From contig JAAYHH010000011.1 in NCBI GenBank assembly GCA_012735435.1, positions 14,141 through 78,140 of the forward strand: a stretch of DNA of 64,000 nt, in the 5' to 3' direction. Below are positions 21,969 to 41,697 of the stretch, one piece after another; the stretch's first letter is position 1; each line of letters opens with the position of its first letter. The DNA comes from Bacillota bacterium. GTDB lineage: Bacteria; Bacillota; Limnochordia; DTU087. The notes below the pieces were generated by a model, which saw only the letters and a list, made by a program, of their open reading frames with translations, searched no databases and was not told the DNA's origin. The position numbers and the translations under genes are program-made.

Positions 21969-22709
21969 CTAATGATATTGATGCTTTACTTCATCTAACG
22001 CATCGTCATGGTAGGAAGTCTCAGGATCGGCATCTAAGTGATCCACCCTTTGACCCGTCACCATGAACATAACCCGTTCAGCGATGTTGGTTGCATGGTC
22101 GGCAATTCGCTCCAAGTATCTAGCCACAAGCAGCAAATTAATGGCCTGACGGGAAACCTGGTCGCTCCTTCCCTCGAGAACAATACCGATTAATTCATCA
22201 AAAAGCTGCGAGTACATTTCATCAATTGGATCGTCTGCCTGTCTTACAGCTTCCGCCAACTCGAGGTCCCGGTCTACAAAACAAGTCAGGCTGTCTCTAA
22301 CCATGGCCTTGGTCTTTTCAGCCATGATGGGAATATCGATGAGAGGCTTGATCAGAGGCTCCTCCCCAATTCGCAAAGTCAGTTCAGCAATGTTGCAGGC
22401 GTTGTCTCCAATTCTTTCCACATCGGTGGTGATCTGAAAGATTGCCACTACAGTTCGCAAGTCTGAGGCCAAAGGCTGCTGCAAAGCGATTAGGCGCATG
22501 CAGCGCTCCTCTATATCGATCTGCATTTCGTCTACAATGTCGTCCTTCTCCAGCACAGACTGAGCCCCGGCCAAATTCTGAGTACTTAGATAGTGAACAG
22601 CCTCGTGGATCTGCTTTTCTACCAAACTGCCCATCTTGAGCATTTCCGCTTGGATACTTTGTAATTCCCTATGGAAACCTTCCCTTGTCACGTCGAAAGC
22701 CCCCTCCAT
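21969..22709 (-). CDS. phoU: phosphate transport regulator PhoU
   Basis: Two PhoU repeats with the DxxxD/ERIGD pattern (TDVERIGDNACNIAE; ARYLERIADHATNIAE). Confidence 0.85.
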   Translation of the reverse strand: MEGAFDVTREGFHRELQSIQAEMLKMGSLVEKQIHEAVHYLSTQNLAGAQSVLEKDDIVDEMQIDIEERCMRLIALQQPLASDLRTVVAIFQITTDVERIGDNACNIAELTLRIGEEPLIKPLIDIPIMAEKTKAMVRDSLTCFVDRDLELAEAVRQADDPIDEMYSQLFDELIGIVLEGRSDQVSRQAINLLLVARYLERIADHATNIAERVMFMVTGQRVDHLDADPETSYHDDALDEVKHQYH

Positions 22710-22723
22710 TTGCTGGAGTCAGT

Positions 22724-23491
22724 CTAACTGAATCTACCAGTGATATAGTCTTCGGTGCGTTTATCCTTGGGCCGTGCAAAAACATCTGAAGTAGGGCCGA
22801 ATTCAACTAAAAACCCTTCCGACAGAAAGGCTATGTAATCGGAAACTCTACCAGCCTGCTGCATGCTGTTGGTAGCCAAAACCAAAGTGTACTCCTGCTT
22901 TAGTTCCAGGATCAGGTCCTCAATTTTCGCTGCCGACACAGGATCGAGGTTATAAGCAGGGTCGTCGATTAGCAGGACCTCAGGCTGTACAGCGAGGGCA
23001 CGGGCAATGCACAGCCTGGCCTTTTGACCCGGGGATAGGTTGAGGGCAAATTCCTGCAGCCTGCCTTTCACCTCATTCCACAGGCCCGCCTGTTTTAGGC
23101 TCCGCTTAACTATTTCATCCAGCTCCCGTCTATCCCTAACCCCGTGGAGCCGGGGGCCATATGCTACGTTTTCGAAGATGCTCTTAGGAAACGGAGAAGG
23201 ATGGCGGGCAATTAACCCTACCCGGCGCCTTACCTCTGTCACATCAGCATCGGGTCCGTAGATGTCATGGCCATCTAGCAGCACTTGTCCTTCTGTTCTA
23301 ACATTATCCCAAAGCTCATTCATGCGGCAAAGGGATCGCAGCAAACTGGACTTGCCTGCCCCGCTGCCGCCAATGACAGCGGTGGCCGCCCCGGAGGGAA
23401 TGTTCAAACTGATGGAGGACAGGGCCTGGAAGTCGCCATAATATACACTCAGATTCCGCACTACCAGCTTAGGGTGTCGCACTAGTACCAT
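22724..23491 (-). CDS. pstB: phosphate ABC transporter ATP-binding protein
   Basis: Walker A GGSGAGKSS, signature LSPGQKARL, Walker B LLIDDP. Positioned between pstA and phoU. Confidence 0.9.
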   Translation of the reverse strand: MVLVRHPKLVVRNLSVYYGDFQALSSISLNIPSGAATAVIGGSGAGKSSLLRSLCRMNELWDNVRTEGQVLLDGHDIYGPDADVTEVRRRVGLIARHPSPFPKSIFENVAYGPRLHGVRDRRELDEIVKRSLKQAGLWNEVKGRLQEFALNLSPGQKARLCIARALAVQPEVLLIDDPAYNLDPVSAAKIEDLILELKQEYTLVLATNSMQQAGRVSDYIAFLSEGFLVEFGPTSDVFARPKDKRTEDYITGRFS

Positions 23492-24351
23492 CTACCTCTT
23501 TCTCGTTCATGAACACTGCCAGCCAAAGAATCTCCAGTCCTTTTCAACCTAAGGGCTGCCCCCTGAAGACAGACGGATGTCAGTACCAGCAGCAGAGCAG
23601 TCCCAAAATGGTGTGGACTGGCCACTTCACCAGATTCAACTACCGACCGATACAAGTGGTACGGCAATGTGGATAGGGATTGGCCGTGAAAGCTCGGCCA
23701 AGCAGCTGCGATCATGATCACAGGCGCTGTTTCGCCGCCTACCCGGGCCATTCCCCCCAAAGCTTCCGCGGCTAAGAAGCGTCCGGCACAGGGCATCAGT
23801 GCCCCCCAGGTGGTCTGCCAACGAGAGCCGCCGAGGGCCAGACTGTCTCTGCGAAAAGAAACCGGTACCTCCTTTAGGGCCGAGTATGTCACAGAGACCA
23901 ACTGCGGCAGCAGCCATACCGCCGATGTCAATAGAAAGATCAGTGTCTGTTTCCCTTCTCCGAAGTATGGTGCAAGGGCACCCCAGCCAAATAAACCGTA
24001 TACTATGGGGGGCATCTCTGCAAGGCCTCCGACAGCGGCGAGCATCCACTGCTTCAGACGATTTTCCCTCGCGTATTCGCTCAAGTACACTCCAGCCCCT
24101 ATTGCGAGGGGCAATGCTAAGAGGGCTCCTCCAAACAACAGGGATAAAGTGCGGAACCAGAGGGGCAGCAGTATATTATCGGTCTCAGCAAAAGCACCGT
24201 CTCTGAAAAACCTGACTAGCGGACCGAACCCCCTGAAGACTAGGTATCCTACATAAAAGATCAAAATCCCTGCTGCTAACCAAGAGATCAGTATAATTGA
24301 TGAGTAAATGATTCCACCAGTATATGTCTGGGGGCTGTGCCTGTCTCTCAT
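23482..24351 (-). CDS. pstA: phosphate ABC transporter permease PstA
   Basis: Six-TM permease with the ABC EAA-type loop (DSLALGGSRWQTTWGALMP). It overlaps both neighbours. Confidence 0.85.
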   Translation of the reverse strand: MRDRHSPQTYTGGIIYSSIILISWLAAGILIFYVGYLVFRGFGPLVRFFRDGAFAETDNILLPLWFRTLSLLFGGALLALPLAIGAGVYLSEYARENRLKQWMLAAVGGLAEMPPIVYGLFGWGALAPYFGEGKQTLIFLLTSAVWLLPQLVSVTYSALKEVPVSFRRDSLALGGSRWQTTWGALMPCAGRFLAAEALGGMARVGGETAPVIMIAAAWPSFHGQSLSTLPYHLYRSVVESGEVASPHHFGTALLLVLTSVCLQGAALRLKRTGDSLAGSVHERERGRWY

Positions 24352-25235
24352 TCTTGTACCCTCCAGTGACTCTGCATGAAGCGGCGGCCTAGGCTGGAAA
24401 TAGCCAGGGATAAGATCATAATCAACATGGCCATGGGAAAGAGTTCGGAATGGTGCCAGCCCAGCTCTGCTCCCATTACAATCGCCGTCGGCACGGTAAA
24501 CAGCCTGTGGTCCTGACTTGCCGTTAAGCTGCTTCTGGCAGCTGCTTGCCAGAGCATCAGGACGATAGCAGTATCCCCCATGGTTCTGCCCAAACCGAAA
24601 AATCCCGCAGCAGCAATACTGGATCTAGCCGCGGGATAGACAGTATAAACTATAGTCTGCCAACGGCTTGCACCTAGTGCGTAGGATGAAGCCCTTAGAG
24701 ATGGCGAAATTCGCCTGAAATGCTCGATCAAGAAGGATGCAAGAGAGGGATAAACCATCAGTGCCAGAAGAAGGGAAGCAGCTGGATATAGCCTTAGTGG
24801 GGATGTTCCTTGAGAAGACTCATAGTAACCGAGCCAAACCAGCCCGATAAATCCAATAACCACCGAAGGAACTGCGGATAACACTTTTATGGTAGTCCAG
24901 AACATCTTCGCCGGTTTGGAAGGTGCCAATTCGGTTATATATAAAGCAGAAAGAAGGCCGACGGGTAAGGCGACTACCACCGCTCCTGCGGCAATTACTA
25001 GAGAATTAACTACTGCCGTCAAAATCAAATCCAAATCCAGGTCCACCAAGAGTACGGAGCGAACGGCTCCTATGACTACAAAAATCACCACAGCAGCCAA
25101 CACCACGAGGGTTGCTGCGGTTGCTAGCTTAAGAATCGTCTCTGGGCCAAAACGAAATGTCTGACCAGTACTTGCCAGTTTCTCCTTGGTGCTTTCAATA
25201 CCCATGCTGACTCTATTCATACTGTCAGGGCACAA
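24348..25235 (-). CDS. pstC: phosphate ABC transporter permease PstC
   Basis: Permease with the loop SSYALGASRWQTIVYTVYPAARS. The start is uncertain because no good SD precedes any candidate start. Confidence 0.8.
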   Translation of the reverse strand: MCPDSMNRVSMGIESTKEKLASTGQTFRFGPETILKLATAATLVVLAAVVIFVVIGAVRSVLLVDLDLDLILTAVVNSLVIAAGAVVVALPVGLLSALYITELAPSKPAKMFWTTIKVLSAVPSVVIGFIGLVWLGYYESSQGTSPLRLYPAASLLLALMVYPSLASFLIEHFRRISPSLRASSYALGASRWQTIVYTVYPAARSSIAAAGFFGLGRTMGDTAIVLMLWQAAARSSLTASQDHRLFTVPTAIVMGAELGWHHSELFPMAMLIMILSLAISSLGRRFMQSHWRVQE

Positions 25236-25588
25236 ACCCAGGGGAGGTTACTGGGTCACGCCATGCCTCCTCTCGGGCCTACAGCAGCCGGGTTGGTAAG
25301 TAATCCAGCTGATATTAGCGGTCTATTGGAACCTGGCATTAGCTGCATAACTCTCAACAGTTAAAGGTGGCCCCCTACCTCACCAAAGGCCACTTACCTA
25401 CACTATTTAATTTTACCATGTTGGTGTTACCTGATTGTTACAAGCGTGCTAACTTCTCGTAACGGGGCAGTCGCCACTTCCATTCCATTTGGTTCAGGTT
25501 CCGTAAAATACATTCGCTTCTACCCCATCAAGGACCTGCCAAGATTTCCCCGAAGCAGGACTGGAAAATGGTTAACGGGCAGGCAATA

Positions 25589-25617
25589 TTGACAATTGTG
25601 GCCAGTCATGGTATATT
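25589..25617 (+). promoter_or_regulatory. strong sigma-A promoter with extended -10
   Basis: TTGACA (25589-25594), 17 nt spacer, TGgTATATT (-10 at 25612-25617). Confidence 0.65.
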
Positions 25618-25716
25618 AAAGATGAAAATAACGTGTATACAGGATACATGATGTGTAAGCGTTTGTAGGCGTTCGGATAGATGTCGGCGGGTAGATACTT
25701 TGAAAGGAGTGATCCC

Positions 25717-25887
25717 TTGATAATCTCTGTCGGCAACCGGGAGATTACTATCAAGGTCCGCGAACAGTCAAGACCGGAAATCGCGGAGAGAGTGTACCGT
25801 CAGCTCCTTAGGGAGAGAGAAGTTCAGAAGGATCGGGATGCTGCCTACGCCCGTCTGTTGTTTGGTCAGGGGATTCACTTAAACTAG
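25717..25887 (+). CDS. small hypothetical protein (56 aa)
   Basis: TTG 25717 is preceded by GAAAGGAG plus 7 nt. It is framed by a strong promoter about 100 nt upstream and a strong terminator downstream. Sequence: LIISVGNREITIKVREQSRPEIAERVYRQLLREREVQKDRDAAYARLLFGQGIHLN. Confidence 0.55.
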   Translation: MIISVGNREITIKVREQSRPEIAERVYRQLLREREVQKDRDAAYARLLFGQGIHLN

Positions 25888-25910
25888 ACCACTGCAAGCG
25901 TAACAGTATG

Positions 25911-25974
25911 AAAAAGCAAACTGCGATGCTATACCACTCAAGGTACAAGGCATCGCAGTTTGTTTATTCTTTAT
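25911..25974. terminator. bidirectional rho-independent terminator
   Basis: A 14-bp stem GCAAACTGCGATGC / GCATCGCAGTTTGT (25916-25929 and 25950-25963). It has TTATTCTTTAT on the plus side and AAAAA (U5 in minus sense) on the other. It closes both the small plus-strand gene and the minus-strand SLH gene. Confidence 0.75.
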
Positions 25975-26017
25975 GCAGCAAAAAGATTTCCAAGCTAGGT
26001 ATATGCACTCAGGCTAT

Positions 26018-27574
26018 TTAGTTTACAAACCCGATAATCAACGCCAGTACCGCTGCAATGGTTGCGATATTGGCGGCACTCTTAAGACTCTGATTCTGCT
26101 TCTCAGCATGGGTTCGGTAGCTGTCAAACTCATCCCGCAGCTCCTGCAGCTGCCGCTCCAGCCGCTGTTCCCGCATTAGGGCTGCATTGATCTGGGCAGA
26201 TGATTGTGTAATCACCCGCTCATCAACGGCTGCCAGGGCAGACTCTGTGGCGCTTACCCGCTCCTGCAGTATAGAAACAGCTGCCTGCAGCTCTTCAACG
26301 TAATCCTGCAGATCTGCAAGATCCTTGCTGTCAGCTGCTGCACCCTGCTGCAAGATATTGGTCCTCTTGTCTAAGGCAGCGATCTTCTGAGAAATATTTA
26401 CAAGGTCTGTCTGGACTGCCTCCAAACTCCTAACCAGGTCTTGACGCAGACCGCTGACATCCTTCATCAATTGCCCATCCGCGGCAGCCATAGCTTCTCC
26501 CTGTTTCAAGACTTGATCCTGGAGCGCCTGCACATCTTCGGCAAGTGCAGCCGTCTCCTCAGAGCGGGCAAGTCTTTCCTCCGCTACAGCCTGCTGCAGC
26601 TGTCCAATTTCAGCGGTTAGCTGATCATCCCTCTGGGCGGATTCTTCTTGCCAGCTGCTCAGCTCTTGCTCCATTTGGACAAGCTGCTGGACAACCTCAG
26701 ACAGGCCCTTTTCCACCCGACTGATCTCTTCTGCCAGTTCAGCATCGGCCTCTTGCATGGCGTTCTGCAGTAAGCTTAAAGCCGCATCCCGTTCCGCAAA
26801 GCTGCTCTGGACCTTTACACCCAAAGCCTCCTCCAGCGCTACTAGTGAGTCAGTGTGGAGTGCCAGCATCCGGGTGTGCTCATCTAACCTTGCTTCATTG
26901 GCTTCAACAGCGGCCTCGGTATCGGCCAGGGCTGCTGCCTGTTTGACAAGCTCATCCTCAAGGGCTTGAAGCTTACGGCCCTGGTCAGCAGCCTGCTGCC
27001 TAAGGTCTGCATCAGCAGCTTCGAGGCGCCGGGTGGTATCGGCAACCTGCTGCTGGAGGGCGGCAATTTCCGCCAATATGGCTGCTGCCTGCTCCTGTAT
27101 AGAGGTGCGGATAGCTGCATCTTCCTGCTCCATTGTGTCGATGACCTTAGTCACAGTCTCATCCATTACCTGAACACGACGCTGGGTTTCGGTAACGGAA
27201 GCTGACAGCTCTTCCCTTTGATTATACCACCGTACAAGTTCATCCCTAAACTCGGTAGAAAGTGTCCGGAGCAGTTCCAAATCCTCCTGAGTTACACCCA
27301 GCTGCCCTTTTTCGATGTCCACTAGGAGCCGGCCAACTACTGAAGCCAGCGTATACCTATCGACAGGTCTCTGACCTTGAAAAGTTCCATCGGTATAGAG
27401 AGCAAGATAACCTTCCTGGACTAACTTTTGAACACCCTCATAGGCCCAATGGTCTGCAGGCACATCGCTGATCTGCTGTGCAGTCTGCTGGGCAAAAACA
27501 AGATTCCCCTGACCTACCAACAGCAGCAAAAACAGTAGTACAACTCCTATTCTTCGAATTGTCCTCGACTCCAT
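26018..27574 (-). CDS. SLH-domain, long coiled-coil, C-terminally membrane-anchored protein (Omp-alpha-like architecture)
   Basis: Signal peptide ending LVFAQQ. One SLH motif (DVPADHWAYEGVQKLVQEGYLALYTDGTFQGQRPVDRYTLA). About 390 aa of Ala/Gln/Glu/Leu-rich heptad-like sequence. Terminal hydrophobic tail IATIAAVLALIIGFVN. Confidence 0.75.
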   Translation of the reverse strand: MESRTIRRIGVVLLFLLLLVGQGNLVFAQQTAQQISDVPADHWAYEGVQKLVQEGYLALYTDGTFQGQRPVDRYTLASVVGRLLVDIEKGQLGVTQEDLELLRTLSTEFRDELVRWYNQREELSASVTETQRRVQVMDETVTKVIDTMEQEDAAIRTSIQEQAAAILAEIAALQQQVADTTRRLEAADADLRQQAADQGRKLQALEDELVKQAAALADTEAAVEANEARLDEHTRMLALHTDSLVALEEALGVKVQSSFAERDAALSLLQNAMQEADAELAEEISRVEKGLSEVVQQLVQMEQELSSWQEESAQRDDQLTAEIGQLQQAVAEERLARSEETAALAEDVQALQDQVLKQGEAMAAADGQLMKDVSGLRQDLVRSLEAVQTDLVNISQKIAALDKRTNILQQGAAADSKDLADLQDYVEELQAAVSILQERVSATESALAAVDERVITQSSAQINAALMREQRLERQLQELRDEFDSYRTHAEKQNQSLKSAANIATIAAVLALIIGFVN

Positions 27575-27630: not shown

Positions 27631-29664
27631 TTACCTGGCAACAGTAACCGGCAGTTCCATGGGTCCCAATTCGATCACCTGTCCACTGGTGGTGGTCAGC
27701 TTGGTACCCAGCAGCTGGATGACACCGGTGCCTTCAGCGCCTGCCACAAACCGGATTGAACACAGGTTACCTGTCAATCGACTGGGTCCCAGCTGTGAAA
27801 GCCCCCGGAGTTTCACCTGGATAATGCCCTGTGACGGCTGCAGCTCCACCTCCATCGGAGCGGCATCTCCCACGGCAGCCGATAGAGGTGCCAGGACCTC
27901 GCCCCGCTCTACTCCAAGGCGGCCGCCGGCTACCCGCATCAGGTCCACTGGAAACTTAAGCAAGAACTCTGCCTCTTCGATGTTCTTCAGATTATAGCCC
28001 CTTATGGCCGTCTTCATAGGCCCTCCCACAACAGCGGGGCCTGTCCCCTCTGCGATGAGTCTGATCATTTGGGGAAGCTGCGGTATGCTGATAAATTCAT
28101 TTACAATCAGCGGTTCGGTGGCACCGGACTCCACCCTCACCGAATAGGGCAGGCTGTCACTGGCCACATCGGTTGGGGTTAAGAACCACTGAACCACAAT
28201 GGACTCCTGTGGACCGAGATCTCCGCAGAGTTTAGTCCGCCCCTCACCAGGGGCCAGCTGAAGCCCCAAGGGTGCCTGCCATTGGGCATGAACCCACGGT
28301 GCATTCATTTCACCGACATTGGTGATGGTGGCCCTAACGGCAAAGGGTACCGGCTGCAGACTTCCATCTTCAACTAAGAGACGGGGCGGTGCGGAGATTT
28401 TCACCTGCAGTTCGGCAGGTTTGGCGATCCTAACTTGCCGCCGCACCCGGTTGGGCTCACTGTTGGCAGCTTCAACCTTTACTTCGTAGCTGATTTCACC
28501 TCTAATATGGTCAGCCACTTCCACTTGCCAGGCCAGCTGTACTGACTCTCCCACTTCCAAATTACCCAGGCTGCCGCCGGCCTCCTGTCCAGGAACCAGG
28601 GACAAGCCGCTGGGCAGTTCAATGGCTATCCTAACATCCCTAGCCTCACCTTCGCCGCTGTTCTCCAGATAGGCGACAATCGGGAACCTTGTCGGTCCGT
28701 CGGGGGCGTGGGAGACTACAGCAGGTGATGTGACTCCCAAGGAAAGCTTTCCGGGAGCAATGGTTATACCGCCAAGCCCGTAGTAAGTTACCCAAGTAAC
28801 GCTCTCGCCGGGACCGAGGGTGACCGGATCCCAAAACATAGCAATCGCCGAATCCAGCTCAAATTCACCCTTCCGGAGGAAAATGCGGCCAGGGTCAAAA
28901 TCAAAATCCCAGATGCTCTCTGCCAAAGCTCCCCAGTTGCTGAAGTACACCCGATCAGGCGGGGTTACCCCTGAACCCCGCAGGGTTCCCTGGGACATAA
29001 CCTGGGGATCGGCCAGGGAGTCGAATGCCTGCCAAAACTCCGGTATAGCTCCTCCGGTAAACAATGTATCGGTAGTAACAGCCTGCTGCTCTACCCTAAA
29101 GGGGGCACCGTCATTGGCGCCCAACATAGTATCCAGCATAAGCCGCATGGCTACGCTGTGGGAAACAGAATCCTCATTGGTCAAAGTATAGGCAATCCGG
29201 GCTGTATCTTGCAGACCAGTGGTGCTGCTTCGGGTAAAGCTGAGGATCTGCTCCGCTTTCACCGGCCCTAGTTTATATACAGTGCTGATGGCATTTCCCT
29301 GGATAACTTCGGGTCCTGAGATCAGCTCCCCGAATGGTCCTTGTCTTCCAGCGGAGGTCTGTGTCGGACCGCCAAATACATAGTTGCGACCGTCTATTTG
29401 GATCGTGGTGTAAGAAGTCCAAGGATCGGCCATGCCGTAAACTAAGGGTTTGTTTTCATCACCGATCCGGTCAGGATCTCCGCCGGTGGTGTTGATGGAG
29501 AACCGGCCGGTGTTTTCTTCGCCTCCGTTGACAATGATGGAAATGTATTCATTGGCGACAATGATATTGCTGCCGACGTTACCTTCGACCATAGCCCGGG
29601 CCTTCTCTACTTCACAGCTAATCAACATGACCGCAGCCAGGGCAATTGCCAACCAGCGCCGCAT
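27631..29664 (-). CDS. exported (possibly lipidated) 677-aa multidomain protein
   Basis: Signal MRRWLAIALAAVMLISC (lipobox-like LISC), or an AxA site KARA/M. It has an unrecognised ~300-aa N-domain. Two Ig/CARDB-like modules follow (IVAYLENSGEGEARDVRIAIELPSGL; VRATITNVGEMNAPWV). The C-terminal beta-sandwich resembles a cohesin (AEFLLKFPVDLMRV...GNLCSIRFVAGAEGTGVIQL). Confidence 0.7.
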   Translation of the reverse strand: MRRWLAIALAAVMLISCEVEKARAMVEGNVGSNIIVANEYISIIVNGGEENTGRFSINTTGGDPDRIGDENKPLVYGMADPWTSYTTIQIDGRNYVFGGPTQTSAGRQGPFGELISGPEVIQGNAISTVYKLGPVKAEQILSFTRSSTTGLQDTARIAYTLTNEDSVSHSVAMRLMLDTMLGANDGAPFRVEQQAVTTDTLFTGGAIPEFWQAFDSLADPQVMSQGTLRGSGVTPPDRVYFSNWGALAESIWDFDFDPGRIFLRKGEFELDSAIAMFWDPVTLGPGESVTWVTYYGLGGITIAPGKLSLGVTSPAVVSHAPDGPTRFPIVAYLENSGEGEARDVRIAIELPSGLSLVPGQEAGGSLGNLEVGESVQLAWQVEVADHIRGEISYEVKVEAANSEPNRVRRQVRIAKPAELQVKISAPPRLLVEDGSLQPVPFAVRATITNVGEMNAPWVHAQWQAPLGLQLAPGEGRTKLCGDLGPQESIVVQWFLTPTDVASDSLPYSVRVESGATEPLIVNEFISIPQLPQMIRLIAEGTGPAVVGGPMKTAIRGYNLKNIEEAEFLLKFPVDLMRVAGGRLGVERGEVLAPLSAAVGDAAPMEVELQPSQGIIQVKLRGLSQLGPSRLTGNLCSIRFVAGAEGTGVIQLLGTKLTTTSGQVIELGPMELPVTVAR

Positions 29665-29720: not shown

Positions 29721-30647
29721 CTACTCGTTCCGGACATACCTGACACCATCGTAAAGAATCGATACCCTAAACTCCGGCGGACCGCTGAAGGAGACAGTTA
29801 CCGTCAGAATATAATCCTCCAGCAGCGGCTCCATTCGCCATCCGTTCTGGATAGTTAAGCTTGCTACCTGGTCTAGGCTTGCTGCCCCGGAAGACTGGAT
29901 GATGTCAATCCGGGTTGCTCTAGTAGACCCCTTGGGGACATAGGCATCCAGCTTCACAGTGCCTGCCAAGCCCTCGTTAATTGCATTCTTGGGGTACTGA
30001 ATCCGGCCACCGCCTGCTACCAGAGTGCTTGCCGCCGGCAGTGGAGGCAGTGGCGGTGGCGAAGGTGGTGTCGGTTCTGCCTCTTCATCGCTTTCTGTCT
30101 CGGATGAAGAACCGCCTGGTTCGCCGGCAGGGGCAGAATCGCCTCCAGCCATGACAGCATCTTGACCTTGCTCGCTGGTCAGGATTTGCTCCCCATTGCT
30201 GTCAGGCTGCGATAGAGCCTCTTCACTGGCTGCCGGATCCGGCTCAGGTTCAGGCTCAGGCACTACCCTGGTGTCAGGAGTCTTAACTTCCTCTTGGGGA
30301 GCCGGGGTCGTCTCCTGCGGCTTTGGTGCTGGCTCCGGTTCAGTCTTGGTTACCTCGGCCTTGGCAGTTTCAACCGGTTCCGGTTCTTCCTTCGGTGGCG
30401 TGGGTTCCTGACGACGGGGAGTTTGCTGCTGCGGCTGCTGCCTGACCGCTTGGGTTCTAGGCGCTGGCTGCTGGACCTCTACGGGTACAACAGAAATAAT
30501 ACCGCCGCCAGGACCTGCAAAAAGGCCGGGTCCAACCGCAAATTCCCAGCGGGGAAAGACAAAGAACAGCATTGCGTGAAGGATAAGCGAAATCAAGACA
30601 AAGGCTCCAAAGGAGCGGTCTGACTCATCTCCTGTATACATTGCCAC
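29721..30647 (-). CDS. TonB/TolA-type energy-transducing protein
   Basis: N-terminal TM with the SxxxH motif (FVLISLILHAMLFF). About 150 aa of Pro/Glu/Lys/Thr-rich spacer (EPEPEPDP, PPSPPPLPPLP). TonB_C-like end YPKNAINEGLAGTVKLDAYV...IIQSSGAASLDQVA. Confidence 0.75.
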   Translation of the reverse strand: MAMYTGDESDRSFGAFVLISLILHAMLFFVFPRWEFAVGPGLFAGPGGGIISVVPVEVQQPAPRTQAVRQQPQQQTPRRQEPTPPKEEPEPVETAKAEVTKTEPEPAPKPQETTPAPQEEVKTPDTRVVPEPEPEPDPAASEEALSQPDSNGEQILTSEQGQDAVMAGGDSAPAGEPGGSSSETESDEEAEPTPPSPPPLPPLPAASTLVAGGGRIQYPKNAINEGLAGTVKLDAYVPKGSTRATRIDIIQSSGAASLDQVASLTIQNGWRMEPLLEDYILTVTVSFSGPPEFRVSILYDGVRYVRNE

Positions 30648-30691: not shown

Positions 30692-31105
30692 CTACCTGCC
30701 CCGGGGTTCAACTGCAAGGCCAAAGCGATATCCTCCCAGCTGCCGAACAACATCCATTACTTGAACTATATAATCATAGCGAGCCTCCCGGTCAGCTTTA
30801 ATGACGACAAAAAGGTCCGGCCTTTTCTCCAATGCTTTGCCGACCTCTGACCTTAGAGTATTACTACTGACCTGACGCTCACCCAAGAACATCCGTCCAT
30901 CTTTAGCTACAGAAATGGTGATCTGGCTGCTGGCTTGTCTGTCCCAACTTGCCGCCTTGGGCAGTTCAAGATTCAATCCTGCTGGATGGGTCTTAAAGGT
31001 CGTAGCCAGCATGAAGAACACCAAAACAGAAAAAATAATATCAACCAGCGGCACTATTTGAATCGTTGGCTTTTTGTTGCGGACAGAGCGGCGGGCTATC
31101 ATCAC
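30692..31105 (-). CDS. exbD: ExbD/TolR family proton-channel subunit
   Basis: A 137-aa protein. Its single TM carries the conserved Asp (IVPLVDIIFSVLVFFM), followed by a periplasmic domain (VVIKADREARYDYIVQVMD). It overlaps exbB by 4 nt. Confidence 0.85.
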   Translation of the reverse strand: MMIARRSVRNKKPTIQIVPLVDIIFSVLVFFMLATTFKTHPAGLNLELPKAASWDRQASSQITISVAKDGRMFLGERQVSSNTLRSEVGKALEKRPDLFVVIKADREARYDYIVQVMDVVRQLGGYRFGLAVEPRGR

Positions 31106-31716
31106 ACATCACCCCTCGCCTCAAAGATGGCCAACAGCTCCGAAGAGCGTTTGTTGATATCAACCACTAGGCGGTCGATTAATCCCGAAAGGTAAGAATA
31201 AATCAGAGTACCCGGAATGGCGATTACTAAGCCGGTTGCAGTTGTAATTAGGGCTTCTGCAATTCCTGTGCTTAAGGCAAGGGTATCATCTAAGCCGCCA
31301 ACCGCTGAAATCACTTGAAAACTATTGATAATACCTGTTACTGTACCTAAGAGACCAAGCAACGGTGCAGCGGTGATGATTGCATCGAGAAGTCCCAGCC
31401 GGCGTTCCATACGGAAGACCTCTTCATAGGCCACTTCTTCCAAGCGCTCTCGGATAAACTGCTTGTCCTTATCATAATGGGCTATCCCCGCCGCCAGTAC
31501 AGCCGCAACCGGGCCTCTGGTTTTCTTTGCTATCTGGATAGCTTCCAGGATTTTGCCTTGCTGAAGAGCCAGTTTAATGTCATCCATCAAATCCTCTGTA
31601 TCTACTCGACAGCGAAGCAAGTAGACCAGCCTTTCGAGAGAGACAGCTACCATCAATACAGAGCAAAGCAGCAACGGGATCATTACCGGGCCGCCCCGAA
31701 TGATCAAATCCAGCAT
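31102..31716 (-). CDS. exbB: MotA/TolQ/ExbB family proton-channel subunit
   Basis: Three TM spans and the conserved C-terminal half AAPLLGLLGTVTGIINSF...GIAEALITTATGLVIAIP. ATG 31716 follows GGAGG plus 8 nt; the track ORF starts at 31743. Confidence 0.85.
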   Translation of the reverse strand: MLDLIIRGGPVMIPLLLCSVLMVAVSLERLVYLLRCRVDTEDLMDDIKLALQQGKILEAIQIAKKTRGPVAAVLAAGIAHYDKDKQFIRERLEEVAYEEVFRMERRLGLLDAIITAAPLLGLLGTVTGIINSFQVISAVGGLDDTLALSTGIAEALITTATGLVIAIPGTLIYSYLSGLIDRLVVDINKRSSELLAIFEARGDV

Positions 31717-31756
31717 TCTATATACCTCCACTCCGTCCCACATTCATTGGGTAAGA

Positions 31757-31960: not shown

Positions 31961-31985
31961 CCATCAAGATGCTTTTCGACGGGAG

Positions 31986-32213
31986 ATGGGATCTATAATG
32001 GATAGGGAATTAGAAGCAGTTCGGGATCGAGCCATGGACCAGCTCAAGCATGATTTAATAAAAGAGATGGGCTTGTGGGACCTAGTGCAGACCGAAGGCT
32101 GGGGAGCACTGCCGGCCAAGGACTGCGGCCGTATCGGTGGGAAGATGGCAACGAGGCTCAGCCCCAACATCCTCCGGAAAATAGCTGACATGAGCCAAAC
32201 ACAGGGCAAGTAG
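31986..32213 (+). CDS. alpha/beta-type small acid-soluble spore protein
   Basis: LKHDLIKEMGL...ALPAKDCGRIGGKMATRL follows the two conserved SASP blocks (LKxExAxExG and TxxxxGxVGGxxxKRL). The start could be ATG 31986 or ATG 31998. Confidence 0.75.
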   Translation: MGSIMDRELEAVRDRAMDQLKHDLIKEMGLWDLVQTEGWGALPAKDCGRIGGKMATRLSPNILRKIADMSQTQGK

Positions 32214-32278: not shown

Positions 32279-32845
32279 TCAGCCTGCCAAGAGCCTGTAC
32301 TGGGGATGAATTTCATAAAATTCGTCTCTTAGGATGCGCATCAAATAGATTTCCCTCAGCTCCTCGGAACTCCGTGTTCGAATGAGCTTACCCTCTTTCT
32401 TAAATCCGGCCTTCTCATAACAGCGAATCGCAGGGCGATTGGTGCTGGCGACACGCAAGTATACGCGGGAAAGCTTCATTTCACCAAAGGCATAACACAG
32501 GAGGGCTGTAACGCTCTCCAATCCATAACCTTTTCCCCGATAATCACCTTCGCCGATGCGGATTCGAAGCTCTGCATCGCCGCTGCGCCAGGCAATGTGG
32601 TCTAACTCAATATCACCGATGGGAACTCCATTTCGGGTGGTAATTACCAGCCGTCGGATATGGCGGTTGCTGCGCTGTTTTTCATACCACTCCTGACAAT
32701 CCGCCAGGGTTTCAGGATAACCATCATCCTCCATATAATGTCCTACTTCTGGGTCCTTGGTCCATTTAACTATCTCGGGAAAATCCGACGGCATAATCGG
32801 CCGGAGGATGATCCTCTCCCCTTCAATTTTCATGTCTGCTGCCAC
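32279..32845 (-). CDS. GNAT family N-acetyltransferase (RimJ/RimL-like)
   Basis: ILRPIMPSDFPEIVKW...RIRIGEGDYRGKGYGLESVTALLCYAF...NRPAIRCYEKAGFKKEG (acetyl-CoA binding R/Q-x-x-G-x-G/A). Confidence 0.8.
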   Translation of the reverse strand: MAADMKIEGERIILRPIMPSDFPEIVKWTKDPEVGHYMEDDGYPETLADCQEWYEKQRSNRHIRRLVITTRNGVPIGDIELDHIAWRSGDAELRIRIGEGDYRGKGYGLESVTALLCYAFGEMKLSRVYLRVASTNRPAIRCYEKAGFKKEGKLIRTRSSEELREIYLMRILRDEFYEIHPQYRLLAG

Positions 32846-33014
32846 CTCTTTGCCTACAGCATCTGCTGCGTTGTTTAAGCCGCGAAATCTGGTTCGTCTA
32901 CAGTTACTAGCGGGCGATTCCTAAGTTAAGGCTTCTACTTAGATTTCTACTTAATCAGAGCCTAACCTTTAGGCAATAGCAGCCAGTCATGCCACGTGAC
33001 AGCAAAGGTGACAA

Positions 33015-33779
33015 CTATTCCATCAGGGACTCCCGCAGTAGGCCGGTAATCCGTTTCTCCAGTCTTGATACCTGCCCTTGGGAAATCCCCAGCATTTCCG
33101 CCACTTCAGTTTGGGTTCGCTCTTGTATAAAACGCAGGACCACAATGGCCCGATCCCTGGGGGACAGCTCCTCACAAGCCTGCTTCAGGGCGTAGTTTTC
33201 TATCCACGTGTCCGATTCCGGCTCTACTCCCAGCTTGTCTTCCAGATGAAGGGCGCTTTCACTGTCTTCGTGAATGACTTCGTGGATGGATAGTATAGGA
33301 GCCACTGCCTCCAAGGCCTCAACTACTTCCTCCCGCTCCATGCCCAGTAAGTCACCGATTTCCCCTGGGGTTGGCGCTCTGCCCAAGCGCTGCTCCAAAC
33401 TATCCCTTGCCCTGATGGCTGCCGCGGCTTTCTCCCGCAAGGTACGGCCAAGCTTAATAGCCCCTTCCTCCCGGAGAAAGCGGCGGATTTCCCCCATGAT
33501 CACCGGCACCGCATAGGTGGAGAATTGAACACCGTAGGAAAGATCAAAGTTATCAATTGCTTTGACAAGTCCGATGCAGGCTACCTGGAACAAATCATCA
33601 AGTTCTCCTCTGCCGCTGAAGCGCTGAGCGATGGACATGGCCAGCCGCAGGTTGGCCTCAATCAGCTGCTCCCTTGCTTCAGCATTGCCAGCCTGTGCTT
33701 CAGCCAGCAGGCTCTGGACTTCCTCTGAGGTTAAGCTCAAAGCTGGAGGCAGTTGGATCTTGCCTGAAGGCTCTTGCAT
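33015..33779 (-). CDS. sigF: sporulation sigma factor F
   Basis: Colinear with Bacillus SigF as I recall it: DDLFQVACIGLVKAIDNFDLSYGVQFSTYAVPVIMGEIRRFLRE...QTEVAEMLGISQGQVSRLEKR. It is the third gene of a spoIIA-type operon. Confidence 0.9.
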   Translation of the reverse strand: MQEPSGKIQLPPALSLTSEEVQSLLAEAQAGNAEAREQLIEANLRLAMSIAQRFSGRGELDDLFQVACIGLVKAIDNFDLSYGVQFSTYAVPVIMGEIRRFLREEGAIKLGRTLREKAAAAIRARDSLEQRLGRAPTPGEIGDLLGMEREEVVEALEAVAPILSIHEVIHEDSESALHLEDKLGVEPESDTWIENYALKQACEELSPRDRAIVVLRFIQERTQTEVAEMLGISQGQVSRLEKRITGLLRESLME

Positions 33780-33791
33780 AGTGCTCTCTCC

Positions 33792-34238
33792 CTAAGAATG
33801 CACTCGGGCCTGAGTCGGTGACTTGATCATGAACAAAGAGGTTCCTCTACCCGGCTCTGAATCGATCTCCAGCTTGTCCATGTATTCCCGTACAAAGACA
33901 AGACCCAGCCCCATTCGTTCTTCCGGTTCTGTGGTAAAAGCTGGTTCCAAGGCCTGTTCTACATCGGCTATACCGCGCCCCTCGTCCTTCACCGTTATTT
34001 CCAATCGATCATTGGTCAGCCGGCAGGTAACGGTGATCTCGCCCTCCGTGCCCTTATAGCCGTGGATCACCGCATTGGATACCGCTTCCGATACTGCAAT
34101 CTTGATCTCATCAAGTTCATCGAGGGTAAACTCCAGCTGTGATGCGAAGAGAGCAACAGCGGTTCGGGCAAAACCTATGTTGGCCGCCTTGCTGGGAAAC
34201 CGCATTACCACCTTGTTTTCGACAGTTTCCATCATCAT
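33792..34238 (-). CDS. spoIIAB: anti-sigma F factor / Ser kinase SpoIIAB
   Basis: GHKL kinase N-box EAVSNAVIHGY, G-boxes DEGRGI and GLGLVF. About 146 aa. Confidence 0.9.
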   Translation of the reverse strand: MMMETVENKVVMRFPSKAANIGFARTAVALFASQLEFTLDELDEIKIAVSEAVSNAVIHGYKGTEGEITVTCRLTNDRLEITVKDEGRGIADVEQALEPAFTTEPEERMGLGLVFVREYMDKLEIDSEPGRGTSLFMIKSPTQARVHS

Positions 34239-34597
34239 CTTCCCCCAATCTGAGCCAGTGCTTGTTCTTCAGTATCGGCAAACTGCATAATCCGTTCCAT
34301 GCCGGCCATTCTCAGCACCCGCCGTACTGGATCCACAGCCTTAAGGGCTACCACTTTCCCTGCCCGGGCTTGAATCTGTTTGTACCGCCCCAAGAGAACT
34401 CCGAGACCTGAACTGTCGATAAAGTCAACATTCTCCAGATCCCAAATCAAGTGATGAACCTTGGAATTCTCCGCCAAGGCCGCGTCCACCCGTTCCTTGA
34501 CCTCAGCAGCCGTAGCTAGGTCCAGCTCGCCTCCTAAAGATACAATCAATGCCCTTCCCTTCCGCCTAATCTCTATATCCACCCTCTGCCCCTCCAA
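34235..34597 (-). CDS. spoIIAA: anti-anti-sigma factor SpoIIAA (STAS)
   Basis: STAS domain with the phosphorylatable Ser context VDFIDSSGLGVLLG. It overlaps spoIIAB by 4 nt. Confidence 0.9.
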   Translation of the reverse strand: MEGQRVDIEIRRKGRALIVSLGGELDLATAAEVKERVDAALAENSKVHHLIWDLENVDFIDSSGLGVLLGRYKQIQARAGKVVALKAVDPVRRVLRMAGMERIMQFADTEEQALAQIGGR

Positions 34598-34649
34598 AAA
34601 TTAATGCAACCAAAGCAACTGCAATAAAAGTTAGGTGTCCGTTAAATGT

Positions 34650-34676
34650 ATTTTCACGCACATCTGATAAATTCCT
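34650..34676 (-). promoter_or_regulatory. weak candidate sigma-H promoter for spoIIAA-AB-sigF
   Basis: Minus strand GCAGGAATTT, then 13 nt, then GAAAAT. This resembles the RNAGGAWWW / GAAT pair, but the -10 is imperfect. Confidence 0.3.
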
Positions 34677-34721
34677 GCTAGACAGCTAAACCGTTGCTGC
34701 AAGTCGCAGCAAGCAGTCCAG

Positions 34722-34756
34722 CCAAAAGCAGAAAGAGGAGCCTCTAAGCTCCTCTT
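34722..34756 (-). terminator. terminator after dacF
   Basis: Minus sense AAGAGGAGC-UUAGAG-GCUCCUCUU followed by UCUGCUUUUGG. Confidence 0.6.
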
Positions 34757-34825
34757 TGCACTTAACTGCCTTATGGGCACTATTAGTTGCAGTAATTATG
34801 CCCTGTCAAGGACCTTGGTCCCAGG

Positions 34826-40518: not shown

Positions 40519-41697
40519 TCAGCATTCCTGGTGGTTCTTGACGCGGCCGTAACGCCCACCCCCGCCCTCGGCTAGAGCAAGACGCCCTTCCCTGGCAGCA
40601 GCGATGTTTTCAGCCACCTTGGTTCCAACCACATCCTCCAGCTCCCCAAGGGATGTTCCGTGGAGTATCTCCATCTCGGTGCCGAAGGCCTCCAGAAGCT
40701 TATTTAGGGTTTTCTTGCCGACACCGGGAATGAACTCCAAGGGAACTTGGTGAATATAAGGAGGACGGTTTGGGGGATGTACGGGTTCATTTTCATCGGC
40801 GATGGCGGTGATGCGATCCAGCACCCCTACAACGACCTTATCGCTGTCACACCTGCTGCATTGATAAACCGGGGGAGCACCCTCAACTACCCTTTCACAC
40901 TTAAGGCAAAAGGTCCGGTGATACTTGCCCAAGCGTGGCTCTAGACCGTAATTGGCCAGAATTATGTTTTCCGGGTCACCAGCAAGTGCTTTGCAAAAAT
41001 GGGCAAAGTCAGGTTTTATCAGCTTTAGCTTGTTGTATTCCCGGGCAATTTTGGGAAGGGAATGGGCATCTGAATTGCTCAAAAACCGTACATTGGATAA
41101 TTCATGGATTCTATCAGCCAAGTAGGTATCGGAACTTAACCCCAGCTCCAAGGCAGTAAAGTCTACGCCAATTTCAGCTAAGCGCCTTACGCAGTTGCCG
41201 TAAACGCTCTTGAAGGGGGTGAAGGCATGGGCCGGCAAGAAAATCCCTGAAAGTTCACGTACTACGAACTCATTGACTTCCTGAATCTCGAGACTAGCCC
41301 GCTGAGAGCTCAGGGAAATATTGGTAATAGCCCCAGATAAGAATTGGCTTAGCTCCTCCATGGTCTTCAAGGAAGGGGTAAAGGCGAGGAAATGGGCACT
41401 TCCTCCTTGAGGTCCCCCGAGCTCAATCTCTGCCCCTAGAAGCAGGGTGACCTTCCCCAGATAATCCAAGCCTCCACCTGGAAGAGCTGTCAAGTCGCCT
41501 CTATCAACCAATGCCCGAAGGTCAGCCAATACAGCTGGAGAAGCGCAGTCGACGATGCCGGCGATTTGTATTCCTTTGCGTTCTGAGCATTCCTTTAGTA
41601 TTCCTTCTACAGTTAAGGCGGGTGAGGCAGTAATTTTCACCGGAGCTCCGCACCCGGCCCGGCCGATATGGATGTGCAAGTCAGCAAAAAAGATCAA
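40519..41697 (-). CDS. PHP-domain nuclease of the endonuclease Q-like (TIGR00375-type) family
   Basis: N-terminal ADLHIHIGR metal site, Zn-ribbon CLKC...CSRC, and C-terminal helix-hairpin-helix IPGVGKKTLNKLLEAFG. TTG 41697 is chosen after AGGAGG plus 8 nt; the track ORF starts at 41805. Confidence 0.65.
   Translation of the reverse strand: MIFFADLHIHIGRAGCGAPVKITASPALTVEGILKECSERKGIQIAGIVDCASPAVLADLRALVDRGDLTALPGGGLDYLGKVTLLLGAEIELGGPQGGSAHFLAFTPSLKTMEELSQFLSGAITNISLSSQRASLEIQEVNEFVVRELSGIFLPAHAFTPFKSVYGNCVRRLAEIGVDFTALELGLSSDTYLADRIHELSNVRFLSNSDAHSLPKIAREYNKLKLIKPDFAHFCKALAGDPENIILANYGLEPRLGKYHRTFCLKCERVVEGAPPVYQCSRCDSDKVVVGVLDRITAIADENEPVHPPNRPPYIHQVPLEFIPGVGKKTLNKLLEAFGTEMEILHGTSLGELEDVVGTKVAENIAAAREGRLALAEGGGGRYGRVKNHQEC

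What the first reader, a model, noticed from the sequence alone, without database searches (positions are those of the whole stretch)
27631..29664. 677-aa exported protein with an unrecognised N-domain, two Ig/CARDB-like modules and a cohesin-like C-terminus
Seen: the signal sequence MRRWLAIALAAVMLISC has a lipobox-like LISC, and an AxA site (KARA) lies 8 residues later. A ~300-aa N-terminal region (NTGRFSINTTGGDPDRIGDENKPLVYGMADPWTSYTTIQIDG...) does not match any family I can name. Two ~100-aa beta-sandwich-looking modules each have an [exposed loop]-NxGxxxA pattern typical of CARDB-type domains. The final ~140 aa have alternating hydrophobic strands reminiscent of cohesin modules. Inference: a cohesin-like end implies a specific protein partner. 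In this operon the obvious candidates are the TonB C-domain or the SLH rod.
Basis: inference. Interest (0 to 1): 0.5.

Follow-up and report, generated by a model that had tools for sequence, protein, structure and literature searches.

The report
Periplasmic partner of a TonB–SLH envelope module
This exported four-domain protein is annotated in databases as a cellulosome anchor, but it is the fourth gene of an apparently undescribed five-gene cluster (proton-driven motor, TonB-like arm, this protein, wall-binding coiled-coil anchor) kept together in double-membraned Firmicutes and Margulisbacteria, which lack the classical Tol-Pal system.

Summary

- **Domains.** The protein has a signal peptide, a ~270-aa N-domain with no Pfam or NCBIfam match, two Ig-like modules and a cohesin-like end. 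The cohesin is detectable only with a family profile.
- **Lipobox.** LISC is real but found in only 4 of 40 homologues. The AxA signal-peptidase site is the common state among close relatives.
- **Gene context.** exbB-exbD-tonB-X-SLH is kept in 64/64 and 70/71 testable loci of Limnochordia and Halanaerobiales, and also in Marinamargulisbacteria and unnamed lineages.
- **Neighbours.** The TonB-like protein has the SxxxH motor-coupling motif in 67/68 orthologues. The SLH protein always has the Omp-alpha layout: SLH, coiled coil, C-terminal membrane tail.
- **Absent.** No TonB-dependent transporter gene was annotated wherever neighbouring genes were examined, and the window has no dockerin motif.

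Best reading: X is the periplasmic adaptor of a Tol-Pal-like, proton-driven envelope module. The link to the cluster is well supported. The mechanism and the cohesin's partner remain inferred.

The parts
31102..31743 (-). ExbB/TolQ-type proton-channel subunit, first gene of the module
   Evidence: Pfam MotA_ExbB E 2e-32. NCBIfam tolQ 94.6 bits against exbB 80.6 bits, both far below the curated cut-offs. Present just upstream of the target homologue in 64/64 testable loci.
30692..31105 (-). ExbD/TolR-type motor subunit; its start overlaps the exbB stop by 4 bp
   Evidence: Pfam ExbD E 3e-28. NCBIfam tolR 73.2 bits against ExbD 58.3 bits, both below cut-off. Coordinates.
29721..30647 (-). TonB-like force transducer: N-terminal membrane helix with S-L-I-L-H, a long Pro/Glu-rich linker, and a TonB_C domain
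   Evidence: Pfam TonB_C E 5e-9 at residues 216-294. Sequence. SxxxH lies in the hydrophobic N-terminal segment of 67/68 orthologues, and the C-domain consensus is YPKnA...g.eG.V.
27631..29664 (-). The finding: 677-aa exported four-domain protein ('X')
   Evidence: ORF and translation. 705 homologues. Full-length AlphaFold model, pLDDT 87.2.
29593..29664 (-). Signal peptide (residues 1-24) with LISC lipobox (Cys17) and ARA site (22-24)
   Evidence: Sequence. Modelled as a helix at 2-24. Lipobox in only 4 of 40 homologues.
28765..29568 (-). N-domain (residues 33-300): beta-supersandwich of the galactose-mutarotase-like fold; most conserved part of the protein
28423..28749 (-). Ig-like module 1 (residues 306-414), NPCBM_assoc/CARDB type
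   Evidence: PF10633 E 6.4e-6, 26.7 bits against a 24.4-bit cut-off. Beta-sandwich in the model.
28087..28410 (-). Ig-like module 2 (residues 419-526)
   Evidence: Beta-sandwich in the AlphaFold model, pLDDT mostly above 90. No Pfam hit of its own.
27634..28068 (-). Cohesin-like C-terminal domain (residues 533-677); least conserved part of the protein
   Evidence: The family profile hits type-II cohesins, 3l8q E 2.5e-13 and 1qzn 6.8e-7. PF00963 in 43 of the 120 listed homologues. 19% identity to distant orthologues.
26018..27574 (-). Omp-alpha-like protein: signal peptide, single SLH domain, about 400 aa of coiled coil, C-terminal hydrophobic tail (ANIATIAAVLALIIGFVN)
   Evidence: Pfam SLH E 1e-7. 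Sequence. Every complete orthologue examined (about 60) ends in a hydrophobic tail, and total length ranges from 223 to 1447 aa. Conserved post-SLH helix and a conserved motif just before the membrane tail. Lies immediately downstream of the target homologue in 70/71 loci.

Best explanation
X is a Sec-exported periplasmic protein. It is the fourth component of a conserved five-gene envelope module: ExbB, ExbD, a TonB-like protein, X, and an SLH/coiled-coil/membrane-tail protein.

**Proposed mechanism**
- The ExbB-ExbD proton motor in the inner membrane drives the TonB-like arm.
- The C-domain of that arm engages X or the SLH protein, rather than a TonB-dependent transporter.
- X binds a wall-associated glycan with its highly conserved supersandwich N-domain.
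- The two Ig modules of X act as spacers.
- The variable cohesin-like end docks X to a lineage-specific protein partner.
- The SLH protein, probably a trimer like OmpM and Omp-alpha, ties a membrane to peptidoglycan or its secondary polymer.

Together these would form a proton-driven machine that builds, moves or releases membrane-to-wall connections. It would be a functional analogue of Tol-Pal in diderm Terrabacteria, which lack Pal.

**Shown here:** the domain architecture, the folds, export signals on X and on the SLH protein, conserved synteny across phyla, and the TonB/TolA-type coupling motif.

**Inferred:** physical contacts, the glycan ligand, which membrane holds the SLH tail, and the physiological role.
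For: **Synteny**
- ExbB and ExbD lie upstream in 64/64 loci and the SLH gene lies downstream in 70/71 loci, across Limnochordia and Halanaerobiales.
- The same order holds for orthologues only about 31-35% identical: Ca. Marinamargulisbacteria (L086), a Tara Oceans marine lineage near SurA, OEP and LpxK genes (L087), and unnamed lineages.
- The genes are tightly packed: a 4-bp overlap, then gaps of 44, 56 and 56 bp.

**The TonB-like protein is a genuine transducer.** It has SxxxH in the membrane helix in 67/68 orthologues and a canonical C-domain.

**The motor pair is a separate clade.** It scores slightly nearer TolQ/TolR than ExbB/ExbD, and below all equivalog cut-offs.

**No transporter or dockerin seen.**
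- No TonB-dependent transporter gene appears in any neighbourhood that was annotated.
- A published survey reports Ton systems (tonB plus transporter) only in Negativicutes among diderm Firmicutes, and Tol-Pal only in Gracilicutes (PMC12204202).
- Pal is reported absent from Terrabacteria (bioRxiv 10.1101/2021.05.31.446380).

**X itself.** The N-domain has a fold typical of carbohydrate-binding accessory domains. It is the conserved core.

**The SLH partner.** It has the Omp-alpha layout in every complete orthologue.

**Genomic setting.** The cluster sits among housekeeping genes at the window's normal GC content, so it is not an island.
Against: - No interaction was tested.
- X has no beta-propeller and the SLH protein has no OmpA-like domain, so nothing here is homologous to TolB or Pal.
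- The cohesin, the presumed docking end, is poorly conserved, and the profile alignment to the Margulisbacteria orthologue stops near its start.
- No conserved TonB-box-like segment exists between the signal peptide and the N-domain (9% identity there).
- TonB-like length does not track SLH-rod length (Spearman rho 0.04, p 0.76).
- Rod length varies 6-fold, which is odd for a fixed-distance spacer.
- Whether these genomes lack TonB-dependent transporters could not be checked genome-wide.
- N-domain relatives occur without exbBD-tonB and in RHS toxins. The domain itself is therefore a general binding module, not a Ton-specific one.
Confidence: 0.45

Rival explanations
1. X is a nutrient-uptake accessory. 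It would be a glycan-binding protein serving an otherwise ordinary Ton system, capturing an oligosaccharide and handing it to a transporter or OmpM-type porin encoded elsewhere. The SLH protein would be an unrelated neighbour or a scaffold.
For: The motor and TonB-like protein are canonical in motifs. The N-domain fold is that of carbohydrate-binding accessory domains of GH94 and GH116 enzymes. NPCBM_assoc/CARDB modules are common in glycan-active proteins.
Against: No transporter, glycoside hydrolase or sugar ABC system is linked to the cluster in any annotated neighbourhood. The adjacent ABC system in the window looks like pstCAB-phoU and is not conserved beyond close relatives. The SLH gene is as tightly conserved as the motor genes. 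The cluster sits among housekeeping or envelope-biogenesis genes (LptFG, LpxK, SurA, holB). A survey found no Ton system in non-Negativicute diderm Firmicutes (PMC12204202).
Confidence: 0.2
2. X is a periplasmic enzyme, and the N-domain is catalytic. It would act on peptidoglycan, its secondary polymer or a periplasmic glucan. The motor and the SLH protein would position or gate that activity.
Against: The best structural matches are mostly non-catalytic accessory domains: GH94 and GH116 N-domains, the YidC P1 domain and PnsB2. Sequence identity to any enzyme is 8-14%, and no catalytic residues could be mapped. The same domain is fused to RHS toxins and to surface proteins with PKD and choice-of-anchor-D modules, which fits a binding role better.
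Confidence: 0.15
3. X is a cellulosome anchoring scaffoldin, as NCBI names it. The cohesin would bind dockerin-bearing enzymes at the cell surface.
For: Sources name homologues 'cellulosome anchor protein' or 'cohesin domain-containing protein'. The family profile matches type-II cohesins of ScaB and SdbA. An SLH protein is adjacent.
Against: X has a single, poorly conserved cohesin. No dockerin-type calcium loop is found anywhere in the window by a simple motif scan. No glycoside hydrolases are linked. The carriers are diderm lineages, including marine Margulisbacteria. X carries only a Sec signal, so it is expected to stay under the outer membrane. The conserved partners are a proton motor and TonB.
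Confidence: 0.03
4. X has no functional link to its neighbours. It would be an independent exported adhesin or wall-associated structural protein that shares an ancient gene order with them by inheritance.
For: No interaction has been shown. The nearby dacF-spoIIA genes show that long-range synteny is generally well kept in Limnochordia.
Against: The five genes stay together across phylum-level distances, while everything around them changes: spoIIA and pst genes in Limnochordia, hisS and a SleB-like hydrolase in Orenia, holB and lptFG in Margulisbacteria. Gene spacing and overlaps suggest co-transcription.
Confidence: 0.07

Closest known systems
Tol-Pal system (tolQ-tolR-tolA-tolB-pal-cpoB) of Gracilicutes
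   Same: The gene order has the same logic: a two-gene proton motor, then a membrane-anchored SxxxH transducer with a TonB/TolA-type C-domain, then an exported all-beta periplasmic protein, then a peptidoglycan-binding anchor. The motor pair scores marginally nearer TolQ/TolR. The cluster occurs in diderm lineages reported to lack Pal.
   Different: X is a supersandwich plus two Ig modules plus a cohesin, not a TolB beta-propeller. The wall-binding protein uses SLH, a coiled coil and a C-terminal membrane helix, not a lipidated OmpA-like domain. No CpoB or YbgC equivalent is seen. No sequence homology exists beyond the motor and transducer. This is an analogy, not membership.
Ton system (ExbB-ExbD-TonB with TonB-dependent transporters)
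   Same: The ExbB, ExbD and TonB_C Pfam domains, the SxxxH membrane motif and the YP..A..G.eG C-domain are all present.
   Different: No transporter with a plug domain and TonB box is linked in any locus. Instead two non-transporter genes are invariably linked. The NCBIfam equivalog cut-offs for exbB, exbD and tonB are not reached.
Omp-alpha of Thermotoga, and the stalk of OmpM/SlpA (applies to the neighbouring gene)
   Same: An N-terminal signal peptide, a single SLH domain, a long coiled coil and a C-terminal hydrophobic segment. Omp-alpha is described as an SLH plus coiled-coil tether (PMC10160955).
   Different: There is no adjacent beta-barrel (Omp-beta) gene. The gene is linked to exbBD-tonB-X instead. 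Rod length is highly variable, from 160 to 1447 aa.
Type-II cohesins of cellulosomal anchoring scaffoldins (ScaB, SdbA)
   Same: The family profile matches them at E 2.5e-13 to 8e-3 over about 115 residues. A Foldseek search with the full-length model also finds the 3l8q cohesin dyad.
   Different: X has a single copy and no dockerin partner in sight. The taxa are diderm and include lineages not known as cellulolytic. The domain falls below Pfam detection in the window protein itself.
Galactose-mutarotase-like beta-supersandwich domains (GH94 and GH116 N-domains, aldose 1-epimerase, YidC P1, PnsB2)
   Different: Sequence identity is 8-14%, and no Pfam or NCBIfam model matches. The conserved motifs NDGAPFR, FWQAFDS and TNWG are not motifs I know from those families; that is my recollection and was not tested.

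Membership tests
Cohesin (PF00963) / cellulosome anchoring scaffoldin | Cohesin-domain sequence signature | tested here: met
   Met only at family-profile level: A1 against PDB cohesins gives E 2.5e-13 and 6.8e-7, and 43 of the 120 listed homologues carry PF00963. The window protein alone gives no Pfam cohesin hit.
Cohesin (PF00963) / cellulosome anchoring scaffoldin | Dockerin-bearing partner proteins | tested here: inconclusive
   A regex for dockerin calcium loops finds 0 matches in all six frames of the 64-kb window. The rest of the genome could not be searched.
Cohesin (PF00963) / cellulosome anchoring scaffoldin | Surface display, with SLH repeats or a sortase signal on the same polypeptide | tested here: not met
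   X has no SLH domain or sorting signal. SLH is on the next gene, and the carriers are diderm lineages.
Bacterial lipoprotein | Lipobox [LVI][ASTVI][GAS]C at the end of the signal peptide | tested here: met
   L-I-S-C, with Cys17.
Bacterial lipoprotein | Lipobox conserved among orthologues | tested here: not met
   Only 4 of 40 homologues have one. Most have Leu, Val or Gly at that column, and close relatives keep an AxA signal-peptidase-I site instead.
CARDB / NPCBM_assoc Ig-like modules | Pfam match above the gathering score | tested here: met
   PF10633 scores 26.7 bits against a 24.4-bit cut-off at residues 330-400. CARDB PF07705 is seen only in homologues. The second module is supported by the model only.
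Galactose-mutarotase-like supersandwich superfamily | The fold | tested here: met
Galactose-mutarotase-like supersandwich superfamily | Catalytic His/Glu of aldose 1-epimerases, or a mapped sugar-binding site | not testable with these tools
Tol-Pal system | TolQ/TolR motor and an SxxxH transducer | tested here: inconclusive
   Homologues are present. They score nearer tolQ/tolR than exbB/exbD but far below the equivalog cut-offs: 94.6 against a 221-bit cut-off, and 73.2 against 127. SxxxH is present, but TonB shares it.
Tol-Pal system | TolB beta-propeller protein | tested here: not met
   X is a supersandwich plus two Ig modules plus a cohesin.
Tol-Pal system | Pal, a lipoprotein with an OmpA-like peptidoglycan-binding domain | tested here: not met
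   The fifth gene encodes SLH plus coiled coil plus a membrane tail.
Ton system | ExbB, ExbD and TonB with a TonB_C domain | tested here: met
   Pfam hits and the conserved motifs.
Ton system | A TonB-dependent transporter partner with a TonB box | tested here: inconclusive
   None is seen in the window genes scanned or in any annotated neighbourhood. A genome-wide census was not possible. The literature reports none for non-Negativicute diderm Firmicutes (PMC12204202).
Omp-alpha-type tether (neighbouring gene) | N-terminal SLH, coiled coil and C-terminal hydrophobic anchor | tested here: met
   every complete orthologue examined (about 60) ends in a hydrophobic tail.

The most novel reading that the evidence does not exclude
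The five-gene cluster (ExbB, ExbD, TonB-like, X, SLH/coiled-coil/membrane-tail) is the missing Tol-Pal counterpart of diderm Terrabacteria. It would be an ancient proton-driven machine that remodels SLH-based membrane-to-wall tethers during growth and division. X would play the TolB-like adaptor role through a previously uncatalogued glycan-binding supersandwich domain.
Probability: 0.3. Interest if true: 0.85.

Novelty: new variant of a known kind. Interest (0 to 1): 0.66.

Why it matters
Tol-Pal is central to outer-membrane stability and constriction in Gracilicutes, but Pal is reported absent from Terrabacteria. How those diderm lineages energise outer-membrane or wall processes is an open question. 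It bears on models of the diderm-to-monoderm transition.

A five-gene module that keeps its order from Limnochordia and Halanaerobiales to Margulisbacteria is a concrete, testable candidate. It combines a Ton/Tol-type motor with an SLH tether and a glycan-binding adaptor.

The work also does three practical things:
- It corrects a misleading database name ('cellulosome anchor protein').
- It flags a large domain family (more than 3000 clusters at 50% identity) that has no Pfam or NCBIfam model.
- It identifies culturable carriers (Orenia, Carboxydochorda) in which genetics or cryo-ET could be attempted.

Tried and rejected
**Searches that found nothing**
- Pfam and NCBIfam on the N-domain alone, at E up to 10, gave nothing.
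- The A1 family profile, searched by sequence against the PDB, matched nothing in the N-domain region.
- An Rfam scan of the whole window gave no hits.
- A promoter and terminator scan of the operon region found no more sites than shuffled controls.
- A dockerin calcium-loop regex found none in the window.
- Eight full-text searches combining Limnochordia, Halanaerobiales, diderm Firmicutes, Terrabacteria, OmpM, SLH, cohesin, TonB/ExbB/TolQ and Tol-Pal found no description of this cluster. The supplements of PMC12204202 do not mention these taxa.

**Analyses that were uninformative or unavailable**
- Foldseek with the full-length model against the PDB returned only generic multi-Ig hits such as integrins and ciliary proteins, with TM about 0.2.
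- The afdb50 library was not available.
- I looked for fusions of X with TonB among long relatives (P0170 at 983 aa, P0178 at 937 aa). Their extra length is a low-complexity linker or a second cohesin, not TonB.
- I looked for a TonB-box or TolA-box in the mature N-terminus. The linker is unconserved (9% identity), and the first conserved strand is part of the folded domain.
- TonB-like length and SLH-rod length do not correlate (rho 0.04).
- An attempt to name the taxon of the P0170/P0178 clade returned only unnamed metagenome proteins.

**Ideas rejected**
- A link to sporulation, suggested by the adjacent dacF-spoIIA-sigF genes. That synteny is absent from Halanaerobiales and Margulisbacteria.
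- A mobile island. GC content is normal and the neighbours are housekeeping genes.
Full report
**1. The observation**

The ORF at 27631-29664 is real but lies on the minus strand. It is 677 aa with an ATG start, and AGGGGG sits 10 nt upstream.

- *Signal sequence.* The N-terminus is MRRWLAIALAAVMLISC/EVEKARA/M. It carries both a lipobox (LISC) and an AxA site (ARA).
- *Domain layout.* A full-length AlphaFold model built on 40 homologues has mean pLDDT 87.2. It shows a helix at 2-24, an all-beta domain at 33-297, beta-sandwiches at 307-414 and 419-526, and a final beta-sandwich at 533-676.
- *First Ig module.* It hits PF10633 (NPCBM_assoc) above its gathering score and hits DUF11 weakly. Homologues also carry precomputed CARDB hits.
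- *C-terminal domain.* Pfam cannot see it in the window protein alone. A profile of the family matches solved type-II cohesins: ScaB dyad 3l8q at E 2.5e-13, single cohesins at about 7e-7, and SdbA at 8e-3. In addition, 43 of the 120 listed homologues carry PF00963.

**2. Signal peptide and lipobox**

In a 40-sequence alignment the lipobox Cys is present only in the window protein and its two closest relatives (LISC, LIGC, LIAC). One unrelated VAAC occurs elsewhere. Most orthologues have Leu, Val or Gly at that column.

Close relatives without the Cys keep an AWA or AYA site at the position of the window's ARA. The family is therefore exported and, in most members, probably cleaved by signal peptidase I. 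Lipidation is at most a recent trait of one small clade.

**3. The N-domain**

It matches no Pfam family at E up to 10 and no NCBIfam family. Modelled alone, it gives pLDDT 86.8 and pTM 0.88.

  - about 200-215 aligned residues at 8-14% identity.
- *Foldseek* agrees and adds the GH116 N-domains and the periplasmic P1 domain of YidC.

Most of these matches are non-catalytic, carbohydrate-associated accessory domains.

An exhaustive profile search found 3272 representative clusters at E<=1e-3 and 901 at E<=1e-30. This is a large domain family with no database model. Besides the X architecture it occurs in other settings:
- fused to RHS/YD toxin shells;
- fused to PKD and choice-of-anchor-D surface proteins;
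- fused to CarboxypepD_reg modules;
- in shorter (about 500 aa) proteins in unrelated gene contexts.

The domain itself therefore looks like a general extracytoplasmic binding module.

Within X it is by far the most constrained part:

| Region | Identity to 33 distant orthologues | Invariant columns |
|---|---|---|
| N-domain | 60% | 59 of 268 |
| Ig1 | 47% | 9 of 109 |
| Ig2 | 35% | 5 of 108 |
| Cohesin | 19% | 2 of 145 |

**4. The neighbourhood**

X is the fourth of five tightly spaced minus-strand genes:
1. ExbB (31102-31743);
2. ExbD (30692-31105, overlapping exbB by 4 bp);
3. a TonB_C protein (29721-30647);
4. X;
5. an SLH protein (26018-27574).

*Conservation in Firmicutes.* A scan of one genome per species found relatives in 398 species, and the best 80 loci were fetched. 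They come from Limnochordia and Halanaerobiales, for example Orenia metallireducens, plus a few MAGs labelled otherwise. Wherever flanking DNA exists, ExbB and ExbD lie just upstream (64/64) and the SLH gene follows immediately (70/71).

*Conservation beyond Firmicutes.* The same five-gene order holds for orthologues only about 31-35% identical:
- a contig of Ca. Marinamargulisbacteria, followed by holB, S21 and lptFG;
- a Tara Oceans marine lineage near SurA, OEP and LpxK genes;
- three further unnamed lineages.

Everything outside the five genes differs between lineages: dacF-spoIIA-sigF and pst genes in Limnochordia, and hisS plus a SleB-type hydrolase in Orenia. The unit under selection is therefore the five-gene block.

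**5. The partners**

- *TonB-like protein.* It has the SxxxH motif (S-L-I-L-H) in its membrane helix. To my knowledge this is the signature shared by TonB and TolA for coupling to their motors. It is found in 67 of 68 orthologues. A canonical YPKnA...G.eG.V...SG...LD C-domain is also present.
- *Motor pair.* It scores slightly higher to TolQ/TolR than to ExbB/ExbD models, but far below every equivalog cut-off. It is a separate clade.
- *SLH protein.* It has a signal peptide, one SLH domain, a conserved helix after it, and a coiled coil of very variable length. Total length is 223-1447 aa in Firmicutes and 160-221 aa in the other lineages. A conserved motif precedes a C-terminal hydrophobic tail, and that tail is present in every complete orthologue. 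This is the layout described for Omp-alpha of Thermotoga, an SLH plus coiled-coil tether (PMC10160955). A single SLH domain suggests a trimer, as in OmpM; this is inference.
- *Which membrane holds the tail is unknown.* An N-terminal Sec signal followed by a C-terminal stop-transfer helix would by default leave the tail in the inner membrane (inference).

**6. What is absent**

- No TonB-dependent transporter, glycoside hydrolase or dockerin protein is linked to the cluster in any annotated neighbourhood.
- The window has no dockerin-type calcium loop.
- The window is core chromosome: polIII alpha, proS, nusA, infB, pnp, mutSL and miaB. The cluster has normal GC content.

**7. Interpretation**

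A recent survey reports Tol-Pal only in Gracilicutes. Among Firmicutes it reports Ton systems (tonB plus transporter) only in Negativicutes (PMC12204202). Pal is reported absent from Terrabacteria, where SLH-based OmpM and Omp-alpha tethers dominate.

Against that background, the arrangement parallels tolQ-tolR-tolA-tolB-pal position for position: motor, motor, SxxxH transducer, exported beta-rich protein, wall-binding anchor. It does so without homology in the last two genes. I therefore propose that X is the periplasmic adaptor of a Tol-Pal-like, proton-driven envelope module.

- That X works with its four neighbours is well supported. I put it at about 0.8.
- The Tol-Pal-like role is inferred, at about 0.3-0.45.
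- Rival readings are listed separately: an uptake accessory, a wall-glycan enzyme, a cellulosome anchor, or an unrelated neighbour.

**8.

The cohesin is the least conserved part of X. The profile alignment to the Margulisbacteria orthologue stops near the start of the cohesin, leaving about 80 C-terminal residues unaligned. If the cohesin binds a partner, that interface evolves fast. The conserved business end is the N-domain.

Three further checks were negative:
- no TonB-box-like conserved segment was found;
- no gene fusions point to a partner;
- TonB length does not co-vary with rod length.

**9. Novelty**

Eight full-text searches found no description of this cluster or of X. The library misses most subscription-journal papers, so a prior description cannot be excluded.

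I file X as a new variant of a known kind: a Ton/Tol-type motor system with a new pair of periplasmic partners. It includes one domain family that the databases do not model.

Noticed in passing
window 25236-26017: A 782-bp stretch with no long ORF lies between the SLH gene and the pstC-like gene. It holds a near-consensus sigma-70 site on the + strand (25589-25617, TTGACA-17-TATATT with TG), followed by a 68-aa ORF at 25681-25887 (+). There is no Rfam match.
   Followed up: partly
window 32279-36091 (- strand): A dacF-like PBP gene, two small ORFs in the position of spoIIAA and spoIIAB, a SigF/G-type sigma factor gene and a GNAT gene lie directly upstream of exbB. This synteny with the cluster holds in most Limnochordia loci but not in Halanaerobiales or Margulisbacteria.
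   Followed up: partly
window 21969-25235 (- strand): A phosphate-transporter-like set lies here: two permeases, an ABC ATPase and PhoU. No pstS-type binding-protein gene is next to it.
   Followed up: no
L068 (Orenia metallireducens) 12586-13209: A SleB/CwlJ-type cell-wall hydrolase gene (Pfam Hydrolase_2, E 3e-34) follows the SLH gene directly, 4 bp after its stop.
   Followed up: no
L087 (Tara Oceans contig) 5964-7004: In this lineage the gene in the TonB position carries a LysM peptidoglycan-binding domain (E 7e-8) and only a weak TonB_C match (E 0.02). In L088 and L089 the gene in that position has no Pfam match at all.
   Followed up: partly
proteins P0248, P0262, P0261, P0263: The N-domain family, which has no Pfam or NCBIfam model, is also fused to RHS/YD toxin shells, to PKD and choice-of-anchor-D surface proteins of a Pseudomonadota MAG, and to CarboxypepD_reg and thrombospondin-type-3 modules.
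   Followed up: partly
L065, L073 and other loci (SLH gene downstream of the X homologue): The coiled-coil part of the SLH protein varies enormously in length. Total protein length runs from 160 aa in Margulisbacteria to 1039 and 1447 aa in two Limnochordia MAGs, while the two ends stay conserved.
   Followed up: partly
window 40519-41805 (- strand): A 428-aa ORF has no Pfam family at E<=1e-5.
   Followed up: no
window 31964-32209 (- strand): An 81-aa ORF lies between the GNAT gene and exbB. It is conserved only in the closest relatives (L001-L011) and has no NCBIfam match.
   Followed up: no
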